From Candidatus Heimdallarchaeum endolithica (lineage in GTDB: Archaea; Asgardarchaeota; Heimdallarchaeia; Heimdallarchaeales; Heimdallarchaeaceae), in assembly GCA_021513715.1 (NCBI GenBank), contig CP084167.1, positions 1,472,001 through 1,536,000 on the forward strand: a DNA stretch of 64,000 nucleotides, read 5' to 3'. Position numbers and translations under genes: made by a program. Below, in pieces: positions 43,560 to 48,150 of the stretch. The stretch's first letter is position 1. Each line of letters begins with the position of its first letter. The notes below the pieces were generated by a model. It did no database searches and was not told where the DNA came from. It saw nothing but the letters and a program-made list of their open reading frames with translations.

Positions 43560-43623
43560 ATAGAACTATCAAAAAAATTATTAATAAAATATTTTTTATA
43601 GTAATAAAAAGGATTTGTGTAAT

Positions 43624-43794
43624 ATGTCTATTCCAACACCACCATCTAAAAACACAAAAGAGGAGGGAAACCCAGAAGCAAATTGTCCAGAATATAAACC
43701 TATAATGGGAAACTATTGTGAATTTTATTTAACAAGAACAGGGGAATGTATTAAAGGGGTAGGAAAATGTGATGGTTTTGGTGTATTAAAGTAA
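43624..43794 (+). CDS. 56-aa Cys-rich microprotein (not in ORF track)
   Basis: MSIPTPPSKNTKEEGNPEANCPEYKPIMGNYCEFYLTRTGECIKGVGKCDGFGVLK; four Cys, and richer in G+C than the flanking intergenic DNA. Confidence 0.55.
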   Translation: MSIPTPPSKNTKEEGNPEANCPEYKPIMGNYCEFYLTRTGECIKGVGKCDGFGVLK

Positions 43795-43804
43795 AAAAAT
43801 TAAA

Positions 43805-44638
43805 TTATTTTTTCAGGTATTCTTCAAGTTCTGTATTTATTTCTTTAACATTGGCAACAATTCTATTTTGACTTTCACCTTTATTACCTTCAACATTTAT
43901 TGTAGAAGAAGTTAAGAATAAAGGTTTATAGAAATCACGTAACATTTTTTTACCTTCTCCTAGTAAGCAAGAGCATGTTCCAATATAGTTTCCGTCAAGA
44001 TCTCTTTTAATTCTAAAATAAGTTATATGACTAGCTCTACTACGCCAAACAATTAAATTTGCTGTTAAAATTATATTATTTCGAATAATGTGACCTAGAA
44101 AAACGTTATCTTTCAAACCAAATTCATAAAGTTTCGGACTTGGTTTTGCTTCAAAATTTGTCATCAAAAAGATTGTAGTATCATCAGATAACTTTGTATA
44201 GCGCTTAATTGGTACATCTTTAGTTGATTCTTTAATTATAAAAGTAAAAGATTTTTCTCTGCGTAGTGTATATGCTGACTGGTTTTCTATAATTGCAGAA
44301 GCAACATTGATTAATAATTTAGCATTTTTCTTATTCAATTCAAATCTTTCTACTGATTGAACAGGAACTTTTGAACTAGAAATAAGAGAACAAGCGAGTG
44401 TTCCTATCATTTCATGGGTAACTGGACCTCTTATTTTACATCCAGAAGGTAAAACAACTACTGGAATATCATTTGGATCGATATTATTTTTTGCAAAAGA
44501 TTTTGTAGATTTATCAGATTGATATACAATTAGTTTCACATCGTCGTTATTCACTGATTCTATTATAGAACTCATAAAACTTAACATTGGTTTGCAATGA
44601 TCACATGTTTCAGAATGAATATACAGCTCTAGTTCCAT
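43805..44638 (-). CDS. Thioredoxin-fold (CDHC) N-terminal domain fused to an uncharacterised C-terminal domain
   Basis: LYIHSETCDHCKPM...IPVVVL...IRGP matches a Trx/glutaredoxin fold; a ~185-aa C-terminal domain follows. Confidence 0.65.
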   Translation of the reverse strand: MELELYIHSETCDHCKPMLSFMSSIIESVNNDDVKLIVYQSDKSTKSFAKNNIDPNDIPVVVLPSGCKIRGPVTHEMIGTLACSLISSSKVPVQSVERFELNKKNAKLLINVASAIIENQSAYTLRREKSFTFIIKESTKDVPIKRYTKLSDDTTIFLMTNFEAKPSPKLYEFGLKDNVFLGHIIRNNIILTANLIVWRSRASHITYFRIKRDLDGNYIGTCSCLLGEGKKMLRDFYKPLFLTSSTINVEGNKGESQNRIVANVKEINTELEEYLKK

Positions 44639-44741: not shown

Positions 44742-45593
44742 CTATTTTAACAATGCAAAAACAATCCACAATATAGAAATAATTATTGCTGAAAGGATAT
44801 TGAATACAGAATACAATTTTAGAGTGTCATCAAAGTATAAATCATCAATATATTTGCCTATAGAATTTAACCTATTATCAATAGAGTACAATAAAGAGCT
44901 CTGTTTTGTTATTTCTCTCTTATTTTTTTCAGTTGATGCAAAAATATCAATAAAAGCATGTAACATTTTTTTATCTTGTTCCAATACTAAAGTTGAACTT
45001 ACTGACTCAAGTTTTTTATGCAGTTCCTCAATTTGTTCTCTTGAAAGAGCAGGTATCTTCCAAGAATAAGTTTCACTTGCTATTTTTCCAAGATGGTAAG
45101 CAATATCATCAATGTATATATCAAATGATATGGGTTGATAGTTTGTTTGATCTATCATTCTAAAGAACTGTAAATCTAAATCTTTTTTATTTTCGTTTTG
45201 ATAATATTTCAATGGATCTACAACTAAGGCTATAGCTTTGGGGAACAAGTTTTGATATGTTCTTTGTGTGTTTTTATCTGTTCCTGATAGAAAACACCCA
45301 TAACCAGGATGAGTATGCCACCAACCAACTATTGTTTGCTCACTATCTTGCTCTTGTAACTTCATTACAATATCAACTAAAGCTTCATCATCCATTACAA
45401 CAAAAGTACTCGTTTGTTGTTGCTTACCAGTATCGATATCTGTAATAATAAGCTGCCCAGTATCTTGTTTAACATACCCTATTAGTAAACCAGCCGATTC
45501 TTTTGATGTATCCATTCTATCAACAGTTAATATTTTTGCTAAAGCAGTTGCAGACAACAAAATTTCAATTTCTGAAGGTTCAGTCATTATCAA
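44742..45593 (-). CDS. JAMM/MPN+ (Rpn11/CSN5-like) metalloprotease with C-terminal transmembrane tail
   Basis: ESAGLLIG...IVGWWHTHPGYGCFLSGTDKNTQ...AIALVVDP; C-terminus YSVFNILSAIIISILWIVFALLK. Confidence 0.88.
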   Translation of the reverse strand: MIMTEPSEIEILLSATALAKILTVDRMDTSKESAGLLIGYVKQDTGQLIITDIDTGKQQQTSTFVVMDDEALVDIVMKLQEQDSEQTIVGWWHTHPGYGCFLSGTDKNTQRTYQNLFPKAIALVVDPLKYYQNENKKDLDLQFFRMIDQTNYQPISFDIYIDDIAYHLGKIASETYSWKIPALSREQIEELHKKLESVSSTLVLEQDKKMLHAFIDIFASTEKNKREITKQSSLLYSIDNRLNSIGKYIDDLYFDDTLKLYSVFNILSAIIISILWIVFALLK

Positions 45594-45665: not shown

Positions 45666-46703
45666 TTATAACCTTGATAAAATTGGGTGTTCTGTTAATA
45701 AATAGTATGTCATTTCTTTAAGCATGATAATATCAGGATGGTCTTTTGAAATATTTTGGTTTTCAGTTTTTTCTATATAATCCATCATAGCCCATAATGC
45801 AATGTAAAAGTCAATAGGCAAACCTTTAGGGTACATTTCTTCTAATGTGGGTGCACGTAACTCTTTTAAATGGACATTATAGCCTTTCAAAAATTTACTA
45901 ATATCCTTTGCAGTTTCTACTAATCTCTTTGTTTCTCTATATTCTAGAATTGACTGACGTCCAAAAAAGGTTCCCATGTCCTCAAATCGATCATACGACC
46001 CTTTCATCCAGAAGGTTGGGTCAATTAGTGCGATAGTTATAACTTGATTGTCAGGTGTAATTCTTAGCATTAAATTACTTTGGTGAAAGTCTCCAAAAGC
46101 ATCACAGCCACCAATTGATGAAGAAATCATCTGTAAAAACATTTTGGATTTTTCTACTACAGTGCTTTCTTGTTCATTACCTCCAAAAATCTTTAAAACA
46201 AGTCTTCGATGAAGCTCTTCATAAATATCGACCATTACTTTTCTAGTTTGGCCTCCATGAATTATAGCTAGTACATAACCAGCCCAAAAACTCTTGTTTC
46301 TTACTTCAAAAGCATCTTCATAATTAATTCCAGCTATTCCTTCATAAGCTATAAAGGGGTTGTCTTCCAAGTTTACATAAATGAATCTTGGAATTCGCAC
46401 TACTGACCTTGCAGCAAATTTTTTCTCTAGACTCATTGTATTTTTTATTTCTAATAAAGCATCATTGCTATTTTCAATAAACTTGATAGCGACTTTCTTC
46501 TTATGTTCTGTGAATTCTGAAGAATAATAAACATCTACAACAAATACTTCACCAAACCGTCCAGCAGTTTTAAAATACTTAATATCATTTATTTTAATGT
46601 CAATTACATCTTTTCCAGTATCTCTATGTGCTTCATCTATGAAATAGTAACGGAATTGGTTAATTAATTTAAGTAACAGCGCTGAAGCAACATCAGTATT
46701 CAT
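45666..46703 (-). CDS. Protein-kinase-like fold (APH/atypical kinase) protein
   Basis: Gly loop TAGRFGEVFVV, VAIKF, alphaC Glu (LLEIKN), catalytic loop GDFHQSNLM and IDP. Confidence 0.75.
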   Translation of the reverse strand: MNTDVASALLLKLINQFRYYFIDEAHRDTGKDVIDIKINDIKYFKTAGRFGEVFVVDVYYSSEFTEHKKKVAIKFIENSNDALLEIKNTMSLEKKFAARSVVRIPRFIYVNLEDNPFIAYEGIAGINYEDAFEVRNKSFWAGYVLAIIHGGQTRKVMVDIYEELHRRLVLKIFGGNEQESTVVEKSKMFLQMISSSIGGCDAFGDFHQSNLMLRITPDNQVITIALIDPTFWMKGSYDRFEDMGTFFGRQSILEYRETKRLVETAKDISKFLKGYNVHLKELRAPTLEEMYPKGLPIDFYIALWAMMDYIEKTENQNISKDHPDIIMLKEMTYYLLTEHPILSRL

Positions 46704-47055: not shown

Positions 47056-48150
47056 ATGACATCTGTACAAAAAATAACCTGGAACAAGGAAGAAATAAAG
47101 TTAGTTGCCGACTATTTAGTTAAAATAGCTAGCCAATCTAAAGAAGATAAAATAGATCTTCCAACAAAGAGTGAAACACTAAAACATGAAAAAATTGTTG
47201 AAGAAGCAAAAATTGGTATTGCAGAAGCATTAATAACAAAAGAAATTAATGAAGAAGCTTTAGTAGAAGATCAGAAAATAAAAGAAATAATGGAATTTTC
47301 ACAAATCCCACAACCAAAGACTGTAGAGAGAGTAGAAAAACAAGAAATAGAAAAAATAGGCGTTCTTGAAGAAAGACAAATAGAGTTTGAAGAAGAGAAA
47401 ATAGAAATTGAAGAAATGGGAGAAATAACTATTGATGAGAGAAAAATAGAAGAACCAGTTGTAGAAGAAAAAATAGAAGAACCAGTTGTAGAAGAAAAAA
47501 TAGGGTCAAACATTTTATCTCTAGCTAAAGAGATAGGTCAAGCTCTAACAAAAACAGAAAAAACTGAAGACATGTCGATTATTAAGAAAATAGAAACTGA
47601 AGATTTGTCAGCAGAAGTAGTCACAGAGCCGATCTTGGACAAACCAGTCGAGATTAGGCCAGAAGACTTCCCAGAAGATATAAGAGATATTGCTCTAGAA
47701 GAAATACCAGCTAAATCAGAAAAAGTAGAAATAAAACAAGAAACAAAAGAAGAAATACCAGCTAAACCAGAAAAAGTAGAAATAAAACAAGAAACAAAAG
47801 AAGAAATACCAGCTAAACCAGAAAAAGTAGAAATAAAACAAGAAACAAAAGAAGAAATACCAGCTAAATCAGAAAAAGTAGAAATAAAACAAGAAACAAA
47901 AGAAGAAATACCAGCTAAACCAGAAAAACAACTTACAGAAGAACAAATTAGAGCTAAAAAGCGAGAAGAAATAATTCAAAAAATGCTTGCAGAAACAAAA
48001 AAGAGAGAACAAGAAGCTGGTGTAAAAGTATATGACATGGGAGAAACAGCAGGAAAGAAGTATTCAGCTGTAATTATTGGTCAGGAATCATCAAAAAACA
48101 TTAAAAAATGGAAGAAAGTAACTAAAAAGAAAAAAAAGAGTAAAAAATAA
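47056..48150 (+). CDS. Glu/Lys-rich low-complexity protein with internal tandem repeats
   Basis: 364 aa, mostly E/K/I; 17-aa and 9-aa repeats; basic C-terminal tail; GTGAGG SD upstream. Confidence 0.7.
   Translation: MTSVQKITWNKEEIKLVADYLVKIASQSKEDKIDLPTKSETLKHEKIVEEAKIGIAEALITKEINEEALVEDQKIKEIMEFSQIPQPKTVERVEKQEIEKIGVLEERQIEFEEEKIEIEEMGEITIDERKIEEPVVEEKIEEPVVEEKIGSNILSLAKEIGQALTKTEKTEDMSIIKKIETEDLSAEVVTEPILDKPVEIRPEDFPEDIRDIALEEIPAKSEKVEIKQETKEEIPAKPEKVEIKQETKEEIPAKPEKVEIKQETKEEIPAKSEKVEIKQETKEEIPAKPEKQLTEEQIRAKKREEIIQKMLAETKKREQEAGVKVYDMGETAGKKYSAVIIGQESSKNIKKWKKVTKKKKKSKK
47443..47502 (+). repeat. 27-bp coding tandem duplication (KIEEPVVEE x2)
   Basis: aaaatagaagaaccagttgtagaagaa occurs twice, plus a partial third copy. 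Confidence 0.9.
47698..47928 (+). repeat. 51-bp coding tandem repeat, about 4.5 copies (EEIPAK[S/P]EKVEIKQETK)
   Basis: Units start at 47698, 47749, 47800, 47851 and 47902 (partial) and differ only at one T/C position. Confidence 0.95.

What the first reader, a model, noticed from the sequence alone, without database searches (positions are those of the whole stretch)
44742..45593. Tail-anchored Rpn11/CSN5-like JAMM isopeptidase
Seen: an intact JAMM motif (E...WWHTHPGYGCFLSGTD) with the eukaryote-style GWxHxHPGxGCxLSxxDxxTQ signature. It is followed by a helical/heptad region (SSLLYSIDNRLNSIGKYIDDL) and a terminal hydrophobic helix of about 22 aa with no lumenal domain. Established: Rpn11, CSN5, AMSH and archaeal JAMM desampylases are soluble and are recruited by partners. 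Inference: a membrane-tethered deubiquitinase acting on ubiquitinated membrane cargo, comparable to AMSH in ESCRT sorting. The coil+TM tail is SNARE-like in layout.
Basis: partly seen in the sequence, partly recalled or inferred. Interest (0 to 1): 0.75.

Follow-up and report, generated by a model that had tools for sequence, protein, structure and literature searches.

The report
Membrane-anchored Rpn11-like deubiquitinase of Asgard archaea
This Heimdall-group Asgard archaeon encodes a ubiquitin-removing zinc protease of the proteasome Rpn11 type that ends in a conserved membrane anchor, a layout shared by most Asgard classes and found in no paper I could search, so much of their ubiquitin removal probably happens at a membrane.

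Summary
Window 44742-45593 (-) is an intact ORF of 283 aa; the true start is probably the ATG at 45587, giving 281 aa. It has a complete JAMM site (E32, H93, H95, S103, D106), helices after the MPN domain, and a 23-residue hydrophobic helix (L260-L282) one residue before the stop.

The nearest solved relative is the soluble ubiquitin protease CsRpn11 (E 6e-43), then Rpn11, CSN5 and AMSH. The refutation test failed: all 24 aligned orthologues keep the tail. So does the best Rpn11-like protein in 15 Asgard families, including Heimdall, Kari, Jord/Frey, Baldr, Hermod, Hel and Odin. Tail sequence differs between families while hydrophobicity is kept.

This genome has one ubiquitin gene, ending GGF, inside the ESCRT cluster 190 kb away. 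It has no other Rpn11-like JAMM. Rpn11-like JAMM and ubiquitin co-occur family by family across 400 genomes.

Best reading: a cytoplasm-facing, tail-anchored ubiquitin isopeptidase. The AMSH/ESCRT cargo role is plausible but untested, and the SNARE comparison is not supported. A choline-kinase/APH-fold gene directly upstream is a conserved partner. The downstream thioredoxin-like gene is not.

This scan has flagged the same family before, in at least 26 other genomes. I found no description of the anchor in the papers I searched.

The parts
44742..45593 (-). Whole ORF of the tail-anchored Rpn11-like JAMM protein: 283 aa from TTG, or 281 aa from the likely true start ATG at 45587. The stop codon is at 44742-44744.
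   Evidence: ORF; Pfam JAB, 3e-14; 51 homologues of about 280 aa; orthologues begin at M3.
45114..45572 (-). MPN/JAMM catalytic domain, residues about 8-160. Active-site residues are E32 (45498-45500), H93 and H95 (45309-45317), S103 (45285-45287) and D106 (45276-45278).
   Evidence: invariant columns; profile match to CsRpn11 6fjv over residues 3-146, E 6e-43; model; Foldseek to Rpn11 5u4p_B, E 4e-16, TM 0.84 on the target.
44901..45113 (-). Helical region after the MPN domain, residues 161-231 (helices 163-173, 185-197, 205-220). It partly aligns with the C-terminal helices of Rpn11, CSN5 and eIF3h.
   Evidence: secondary structure, pLDDT 50-80; profile alignments reach query position about 184 in PSMD14 and about 218 in CSN5; conserved W178, P181, L183, L191, H192, K194, K208, D216.
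44817..44900 (-). Juxtamembrane helix, residues 232-259, continuous with the anchor. L235, I245 and Y253 are conserved.
   Evidence: No SNARE or other Pfam match.
44748..44816 (-). C-terminal hydrophobic anchor L260-L282 (23 aa), flanked by K259 and followed only by K283. Y261, N265 and W276 are invariant within the family.
   Evidence: KD19 2.63; 0-4 residues follow the segment in all 24 orthologues; tails in other Asgard families; column counts.
45666..46703 (-). Conserved upstream partner gene, 72 bp from the JAMM gene and on the same strand. It encodes a 345-aa protein with the kinase fold of the choline-kinase/aminoglycoside-phosphotransferase class. The motif residues D205, H207, N210 and D228 are kept.
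   Evidence: adjacent in 27 Heimdallarchaeaceae loci and 5 loci of a sister family; 60% identity, invariant columns; model pLDDT 90.6; Foldseek to APH, choline kinase and MTR kinase, E about 1e-8.

Best explanation
The gene encodes a tail-anchored zinc isopeptidase of the Rpn11 type. The 23-residue C-terminal helix sits in the cytoplasmic membrane. The helical stalk holds the MPN domain in the cytoplasm close to the membrane face. There the enzyme cleaves after the Gly-Gly of ubiquitin. It trims the one-residue extension of the precursor (GGF) and removes ubiquitin from conjugates that are at or brought to the membrane.

Shown: the intact active site, the Rpn11-like fold, the conserved terminal hydrophobic helix, the phyletic link with ubiquitin, and the absence of another Rpn11-like JAMM in this genome.

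Inferred: that the substrate is ubiquitin, that the tail is inserted in a membrane (probably through the Get3/ArsA homologue), and that the conserved kinase-fold neighbour works with the enzyme.
For: - Active site and fold.
- Closest solved relative: CsRpn11 (151 bits, E 6e-43). It is shown in PMC6043591 to process a ubiquitin precursor and conjugates as a monomer.
- Tail: KD 2.5-3.1, 0-6 residues from the end, in all 24 orthologues. Also found in the best hit of 15 Asgard families, in 21 of the 22 best representatives among 1.84 billion proteins, and in named Heimdall, Kari, Jord, Frey, Baldr, Hermod, Hel and Odin genomes.
- The tail sequence differs between families while its hydrophobicity is kept.
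- On a tree built from MPN columns only, the anchored state needs 3 changes against 26 for shuffled labels. Well-supported branches allow a single origin.
- The genome has only two JAB proteins. The other lies in its own E1-JAMM-small-protein operon and does not reach E 1e-10 with the Rpn11-like profile.
- No OTU or USP match in the genome.
- Ubiquitin ends in GGF.
- Rpn11-like JAMM and ubiquitin are present or absent together in nearly every family of 400 genomes.
- A Get3/ArsA homologue is present at 279 bits.
Against: - No biochemical or localisation data exist for any member.
- The gene is never next to a ubiquitin, E1 or E2 gene in the 11 genomes checked. The soluble Rpn11-like JAMMs of the f9, Jord/Frey and Borr families do sit beside ubiquitin.
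- Its conserved neighbours are a small-molecule-type kinase, or in other classes two proteins of unknown family. None has a known role in ubiquitin biology.
- The OTU and USP searches had silent controls, so the absence of other deubiquitinases is weak.
- The genome is 92.6% complete by marker count.
- Hydropathy is not proof of membrane insertion.
Confidence: 0.6

Rival explanations
1. The anchored enzyme is the functional counterpart of AMSH or Doa4: it strips ubiquitin from membrane cargo that ESCRT-I and ESCRT-II have captured, before ESCRT-III/Vps4 scission. It is a narrower form of the best explanation.
For: The single ubiquitin gene and its E1 lie inside the ESCRT cluster, with Vps4, Vps25, Vps22/36-like and a UEV-Vps23-Vps28 fusion. 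Asgard ESCRT-I and ESCRT-II bind ubiquitin according to PMC9192718 (identified; one search read only its methods text). A membrane-fixed deubiquitinase would be in the right place.
Against: The protein has no MIT domain or other ESCRT-binding module. The gene is 190 kb from the ESCRT cluster and is not near ubiquitin in the 10 other genomes checked. A permanent anchor differs from the regulated recruitment of AMSH.
Confidence: 0.25
2. The enzyme does not act on ubiquitin. Together with its conserved neighbours it processes another substrate at the membrane, for example a peptide or ubiquitin-like tag on a membrane or pilus-type machine. The neighbours are the kinase-fold protein in Heimdallarchaeales and two unknown proteins in Odin, Jord, Baldr and Hermod.
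For: The gene pair with the APH/choline-kinase-fold gene is conserved in 27 + 5 loci. In one sister genus a PilB-type ATPase lies between the two genes and PilC-type genes follow. A different two-gene cassette is conserved upstream in four other classes. The gene is never in a ubiquitin operon.
Against: The MPN domain is closest to the proven ubiquitin protease CsRpn11, including the segment aligned without gaps to its Ins-1 region. Presence tracks ubiquitin family by family. In this genome no other Rpn11-like enzyme is left to mature the GGF precursor.
Confidence: 0.12
3. The hydrophobic C-terminal helix is not in a membrane. It is buried in a protein assembly, in the way the C-terminal helices of Rpn11 and CSN5 are buried in the lid and CSN helical bundles.
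For: The helices after the MPN domain align with those of Rpn11 and CSN5. Full-length Rpn11 chains align over 260-285 columns. N265 and W276 are invariant within the family, which suggests a specific helix-helix contact.
Against: The segment is 19-23 uncharged residues with KD 2.5-3.1, placed 0-6 residues from the end, in more than 45 sequences whose tails share no sequence between families. This is typical of a lipid-facing anchor and not of a bundle helix. By comparison, the Rpn11 C-termini scored at most 1.6. No MPN-minus partner or lid-type partner was seen.
Confidence: 0.05

Closest known systems
CsRpn11, the Rpn11 homologue of Candidatus Caldiarchaeum subterraneum (PDB 6FJU, 6FJV, 6FNN, 6FNO; PMC6043591, PMC5654768)
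   Same: It is the best sequence match among solved structures (151 bits, E 6e-43, residues 3-146) and has the same fold. Like CsRpn11, which acts alone, it has no MPN-minus partner candidate in the genome.
   Different: CsRpn11 is a soluble 202-aa protein encoded next to ubiquitin, E1, E2 and E3. This protein is 80 residues longer, ends in a membrane anchor, and lies 190 kb from ubiquitin. On the MPN tree the Aigarchaeota proteins and the soluble Jord/Frey operon copies group apart from the anchored ones.
Eukaryotic Rpn11/PSMD14 and CSN5
   Same: The active-site signature is almost identical. Helices after the MPN domain are present. Profile E-values are 6e-26 for Rpn11 and about 1e-20 for CSN5.
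   Different: The eukaryotic enzymes are soluble subunits of PCI/MPN complexes, paired with the inactive MPN proteins Rpn8 or CSN6. Here there is no such paralogue. The eukaryotic sequences form their own clade (SH-aLRT 98) outside the archaeal group.
AMSH/STAMBP and AMSH-LP (ESCRT-associated JAMM deubiquitinases)
   Same: Both are JAMM isopeptidases expected to work at a membrane where ubiquitin and ESCRT meet. Profile match is E about 1e-16.
   Different: From established knowledge, AMSH is soluble and is recruited through an N-terminal MIT domain and a STAM-binding motif. This protein has neither and is fixed by a C-terminal anchor. It is closer in sequence to Rpn11 than to AMSH.
USP19 and USP30 (membrane-anchored eukaryotic deubiquitinases; from my own knowledge)
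   Same: The principle is the same: a deubiquitinase held permanently on the cytosolic face of a membrane by one transmembrane helix. USP19 is tail-anchored.
   Different: They are cysteine proteases of the USP family, unrelated in fold. No USP match exists in this genome.
Haloarchaeal and other JAMM1 desampylases (NCBIfam NF041370)
   Same: Both are archaeal JAMM enzymes that remove small protein modifiers.
   Different: The match is only marginal (19.5 bits against a cut-off of 130). Those enzymes are short soluble proteins tied to SAMP/E1 systems.

Membership tests
JAMM/MPN+ metalloproteases (Pfam PF01398 JAB) | Score above the curated Pfam threshold | tested here: met
   53.3 bits against a cut-off of 22.5, E 3e-14.
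JAMM/MPN+ metalloproteases (Pfam PF01398 JAB) | Complete zinc and catalytic motif E ... HxH ... S ... D | tested here: met
   E32, H93, H95, S103 and D106 are invariant in A1 (24 sequences) and A3 (34 sequences).
JAMM/MPN+ metalloproteases (Pfam PF01398 JAB) | MPN fold | tested here: met
   AlphaFold2 model, pLDDT about 90 over most of the MPN domain. Foldseek to Rpn11 5u4p_B: E 4e-16, rmsd 2.7, TM 0.84 on the target.
Archaeal Rpn11-like ubiquitin proteases (CsRpn11 type) | Closest sequence relative is CsRpn11 rather than the SAMP-type JAMMs | tested here: met
   6fjv at E 6e-43; desampylase model only 19.5 bits.
Archaeal Rpn11-like ubiquitin proteases (CsRpn11 type) | Encoded in or beside a ubiquitin/E1/E2/E3 operon | tested here: not met
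   Ubiquitin lies at G000 1,707,443 and this gene at about 1,516,742-1,517,593. The two are not adjacent in 10 other genomes.
Archaeal Rpn11-like ubiquitin proteases (CsRpn11 type) | Soluble protein of about 200 aa | tested here: not met
   281-283 aa with a terminal hydrophobic helix. CsRpn11 has 202 aa, and no membrane segment is reported for it.
Archaeal Rpn11-like ubiquitin proteases (CsRpn11 type) | Cleaves the ubiquitin precursor and isopeptide conjugates | not testable with these tools
   Needs an enzyme assay. Indirect support: the GGF precursor and phyletic co-occurrence.
Eukaryotic Rpn11 (proteasome lid subunit) | Pairs with an inactive MPN paralogue (Rpn8) and sits in a PCI/MPN lid | tested here: not met
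   The genome has only two JAB proteins, both with intact motifs. PCI subunits were not searched.
Eukaryotic Rpn11 (proteasome lid subunit) | Falls inside the eukaryotic Rpn11 clade | tested here: not met
   Eukaryotic Rpn11 plus CSN5 form a clade (SH-aLRT 98) that excludes all the archaeal sequences.
AMSH family | N-terminal MIT domain for ESCRT-III binding | tested here: not met
   No MIT or other domain besides JAB was found. The MPN domain starts at about residue 8.
Tail-anchored membrane proteins | Single hydrophobic segment at the extreme C-terminus, few residues after it, and no signal peptide or other membrane segment | tested here: met
   L260-L282 with one residue after it; next best segment KD 1.20.
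Tail-anchored membrane proteins | An insertion pathway is present in the organism | tested here: met
   A Get3/ArsA homologue of 334 aa at 279 bits. This family also includes arsenite-pump ATPases, so the evidence is only permissive.
Tail-anchored membrane proteins | Demonstrated membrane insertion with the N-terminal domain in the cytoplasm | not testable with these tools
   Needs fractionation or protease-protection experiments.
SNARE proteins | A heptad SNARE motif of about 60 residues before the anchor, recognised by SNARE or synaptobrevin models | tested here: not met
   No such Pfam match in the last 129 or 163 residues, even at E 10. The juxtamembrane helix is about 28 residues long.

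The most novel reading that the evidence does not exclude
The anchored form is the ancestral Asgard state of the Rpn11-type deubiquitinase, so eukaryote-type ubiquitin removal began as a membrane-bound activity coupled to the ubiquitin-ESCRT system. The soluble Rpn11 and CSN5 of eukaryotes would then have arisen by loss of the anchor, with the same post-MPN helices re-used to dock into the lid and CSN helical bundles. In Heimdallarchaeales the enzyme would also be controlled by, or act with, the conserved kinase-fold partner.
Probability: 0.12. Interest if true: 0.85.

Novelty: new variant of a known kind. Interest (0 to 1): 0.62.

Why it matters
Asgard archaea are the closest known prokaryotic relatives of eukaryotes, and their ubiquitin and ESCRT genes are used to reconstruct how eukaryotic membrane trafficking began. 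Papers on these systems list a JAB/MPN deubiquitinase only as a domain hit.

If the usual Asgard form of this enzyme is fixed to the membrane, then ubiquitin removal in these cells is spatially restricted. That fits an early link between ubiquitin and membrane remodelling.

It also gives a short, expressible protein with which this can be tested: cleavage of the cognate GGF precursor, localisation of the tail, and the role of the kinase-fold partner.

No membrane-anchored JAMM deubiquitinase has been characterised in any organism, as far as I know and as far as the papers searched show.

Tried and rejected
- **SNARE-like tail:** rejected. No SNARE or synaptobrevin match at E 10, and the helix is too short.
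- **Fusion or read-through artefact:** rejected. The same continuous ORF with a tail occurs in more than 45 sequences from many assemblies.
- **Archaeosortase/PGF-CTERM-type sorting signal:** rejected by reading the sequence. There is no N-terminal signal peptide and no PGF motif before the tail.
- **Thioredoxin-like downstream gene (43805-44638) as part of the unit:** rejected. It is found only in this genus, and its thioredoxin match is marginal (E 0.14).
- **Second JAMM of the genome as the ubiquitin enzyme:** unlikely. It lies in its own E1-JAMM-small-protein operon and is far from the Rpn11-like profile.
- **Kinase homology of the Odin-type 417-aa neighbour:** none (hhalign probability 0.2).
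- **ESM Atlas search with the C-terminal 124 residues:** no usable hit.
- **PDB sequence search with the kinase profile:** nothing. Only the fold search identified it.
- **Literature:** six full-text searches and six papers read for membrane, JAMM, JAB or MPN terms. None mentions an anchored Asgard JAMM. This covers open-access papers and bioRxiv only.
- **OTU and USP searches of the genome:** both empty, but the prokaryotic control genomes were also silent, so this is weak evidence of absence.

Full report
**1. What is in the sequence.**

The minus-strand ORF at 44742-45593 is intact and 283 aa long from a TTG. Orthologues begin at the equivalent of residue 3, and the ESM Atlas holds the protein from that residue. 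The real start is therefore probably the ATG at 45587.

Pfam places residues 11-118 in JAB/MPN (PF01398, 53.3 bits against a cut-off of 22.5). NCBIfam gives only sub-threshold matches to Cap3-type and desampylase models.

It aligns residue for residue with the same stretch of a eukaryotic Rpn11 and a CSN5 representative.

The window is about 30% G+C and carries archaeal genes such as Cgi121. The genome is a single 3.33-Mb contig. The closest protein on record (93% identity) is from Candidatus Heimdallarchaeum aukensis.

**2. The tail is real and conserved.**

Residues L260-L282 have a Kyte-Doolittle 19-residue mean of 2.63. They carry no charge and lie between K259 and the last residue, K283. 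No other segment of the protein exceeds 1.20.

All 24 aligned homologues, down to 32% identity, have such a segment ending 0-4 residues from the C-terminus. AlphaFold2 with this alignment (mean pLDDT 78.7) gives:
- a confident MPN domain;
- three short helices (163-173, 185-197, 205-220) of lower confidence;
- one long helix from 232 to 282.

Within the family, Y261, N265 and W276 are invariant. I read this as a sign of a specific helix-helix contact in the membrane. That is inference.

**3. What kind of JAMM it is.**

A profile of the family ranks solved structures in this order:

| Match | E-value |
|---|---|
| CsRpn11 of Caldiarchaeum subterraneum | 6e-43 |
| Rpn11/PSMD14 | 6e-26 |
| CSN5 | about 1e-20 |
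| AMSH | about 1e-16 |
| BRCC36 | about 1e-6 |

Foldseek gives the same picture. According to PMC6043591, CsRpn11 is a soluble 202-aa monomer that trims a ubiquitin precursor and cleaves conjugates.

Profile alignments to PSMD14 and CSN5 run past the MPN domain to query positions of about 184 and 218. Part of the stalk is therefore homologous to the post-MPN helices that eukaryotic Rpn11 and CSN5 use to dock into their complexes.

**4. Distribution.**

I searched 400 genomes of the phylum with the family profile. I then cut out the best hit from 70 genomes.
- **Terminal hydrophobic helix present** in the best Rpn11-like protein of families f1-f4, f7, f10-f16, f26, f27 and f33.
- **Absent** from the best hit of f5, f9, f17, f19, f20 and f28.

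A scan of named genomes puts names on these groups.
- **Anchored:** Heimdallarchaeota, Kariarchaeota, Jordarchaeia/Freyarchaeota, Baldrarchaeota, Hermodarchaeota, Helarchaeota and Odinarchaeota.
- **Soluble:** Aigarchaeota/Caldarchaeales (the CsRpn11 group), Borrarchaeum, Sifarchaeum and Hodarchaeota.

For f19 and f20, which are unnamed (probably Lokiarchaeia), and for Hodarchaeota I looked only at the best hit.

In an exhaustive search of 1.84 billion representatives, 21 of the 22 best hits (E below 1e-40) are anchored. Tails of different families share hydrophobicity but not sequence.

A tree from the MPN columns alone, with the tail excluded, needs 3 changes of the anchored/soluble label against a mean of 26 for shuffled labels. 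Well-supported branches allow a single origin. The eukaryotic Rpn11 plus CSN5 sequences form their own clade (SH-aLRT 98) outside the archaeal set. This was a quick-search tree of a 151-column domain with an unresolved backbone, so it shows clustering and not history.

**5. Link to ubiquitin.**

The genome has one ubiquitin gene (78 aa, ending GGF). It lies in the ESCRT cluster with Vps4, Vps25, an E1, a Vps22/36-like protein and a UEV-Vps23-Vps28 fusion. That cluster has no JAMM gene.

Only two JAB-domain genes exist in the genome. The second is 351 aa and sits between a ThiF-type E1 and an 88-aa protein. It does not reach E 1e-10 with the Rpn11-like profile. No OTU or USP match was found, though the control genomes were silent as well. 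The anchored protein is therefore the only visible candidate to mature the precursor.

Across the 400 genomes, Rpn11-like JAMM and ubiquitin are present or absent together in almost every family. Examples are f24 (0/7 against 1/7), f25 (0/5 against 0/5), and a block of 89 genomes (4 against 3). This co-occurrence holds for Rpn11-like JAMMs in general, anchored or not, and related genomes are not independent.

Against a simple operon logic, the anchored gene is not next to ubiquitin in any of the 11 genomes checked. The soluble copies of the f9, Jord/Frey and Borr families are next to it. Jord/Frey genomes carry both forms.

**6. Neighbours.**

The 345-aa gene directly upstream (45666-46703, same strand, 72-bp gap) is adjacent to the JAMM gene in 27 loci of Heimdallarchaeaceae. 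It is also adjacent in 5 loci of a sister family, at 36-40% identity.

Sequence models barely see it (APH at E 0.066). Its model (pLDDT 90.6) matches aminoglycoside and macrolide phosphotransferases, choline kinase and methylthioribose kinase at about 1e-8. The catalytic-loop and metal-binding residues D205, H207, N210 and D228 are invariant.

In one genus of the sister family the kinase gene is on the opposite strand and a PilB-type ATPase gene lies between it and the JAMM gene, with PilC-type genes downstream.

In Odin, Jord/Frey, Baldr and Hermod genomes the anchored gene instead follows two co-directional genes of about 400 and 250 aa. These have no Pfam match and no similarity to the kinase.

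The downstream 277-aa CxxC protein is confined to this genus.

**7. Mechanism.**

The most likely picture is a tail-anchored isopeptidase. The tail is inserted after translation, and a Get3/ArsA homologue is present. The MPN domain faces the cytoplasm on a helical stalk. It cleaves after Gly-Gly of ubiquitin, both on the precursor and on conjugates at the membrane.
- **Shown:** active-site integrity, fold, tail conservation, phyletic link.
- **Inferred:** substrate, insertion, any role of the kinase.

The SNARE comparison fails. A rival in which the enzyme serves another membrane process with its conserved neighbours remains open at roughly one in eight.

**8. Novelty.**

The MPN family and Asgard Rpn11-like proteins are known (PMC6043591, PMC5654768). 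The papers on Asgard ubiquitin-ESCRT systems count JAB/MPN genes only as domain hits. None of the texts I searched mentions a membrane anchor.

From my own knowledge, the characterised JAMM deubiquitinases are soluble, and the membrane-anchored deubiquitinases of eukaryotes (USP19, USP30) belong to another fold. I therefore class this as a new variant of a known kind.

This scan has reported the same family before, in at least 26 other genomes. Those notes reached the same reading. I re-derived each point above independently, apart from two leads that I took from them and then tested: the pilus context and the Odin-type cassette.

Noticed in passing
window 45666-46703 (-): A 345-aa protein invisible to sequence models (best Pfam hit: APH, E 0.066). 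Its confident model has the choline-kinase/aminoglycoside-phosphotransferase fold with intact catalytic residues. It forms a conserved gene pair with the anchored JAMM across two families of Heimdallarchaeales.
   Followed up: partly
window 43805-44638 (-): A 277-aa protein with an N-terminal CxxC, a marginal thioredoxin match (E 0.14), and no homologue next to the JAMM outside this genus. It is a recent neighbour and not part of the unit.
   Followed up: partly
L002 586-2853 (G000 about 531.5-533.8 kb, outside the window): A second, separate modifier-type operon: a ThiF-family E1 (292 aa), a 351-aa JAMM with an intact HSH..S..D motif and a long C-terminal extension, and an 88-aa protein ending VVGL with no Pfam match. 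It may be a ubiquitin-like or UFM1-like system of its own.
   Followed up: partly
L007 4901-11992 (G000 about 1,704,900-1,712,000, outside the window): An ESCRT-ubiquitin cluster: Vps4, Vps25, an unknown 132-aa protein, ubiquitin (ending GGF), an E1, a Vps22/36-like protein, a UEV-Vps23-Vps28 fusion and a Ras-family GTPase. It has no deubiquitinase gene.
   Followed up: partly
L137 960-2979, L145, L089, L095, L093, L013 (Odin, Jord, Baldr, Hermod-like loci): In these classes the anchored JAMM gene follows two co-directional genes of about 400 and 250 aa. They are conserved across classes, have no Pfam match, and show no similarity to the Heimdall kinase.
   Followed up: partly
L011 / L087 / L086 (sister family of Heimdallarchaeaceae): A PilB-type secretion ATPase gene (515 aa) lies between the kinase-fold gene and the anchored JAMM gene. 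Two PilC-type membrane genes follow a few kb downstream.
   Followed up: partly
P0118, P0123, P0139, P0150, P0169, P0174; L142, L147, L148 (Bathyarchaeia, Thermoplasmata): Another membrane architecture of Rpn11-like JAMMs: an MPN domain, one transmembrane segment at about residue 180, then a 200-550-aa C-terminal region that would lie outside the cell.
   Followed up: no
window 47056-48150 (+): A 364-aa, highly charged protein with tandem copies of an EEIPAKPEKVEIKQETK-like unit and a lysine-rich end. It is divergently transcribed from the kinase-JAMM pair.
   Followed up: no
window 43615-43794 (+): A 59-aa Cys-rich ORF between cgi121 and the CxxC protein gene. It was not examined.
   Followed up: no
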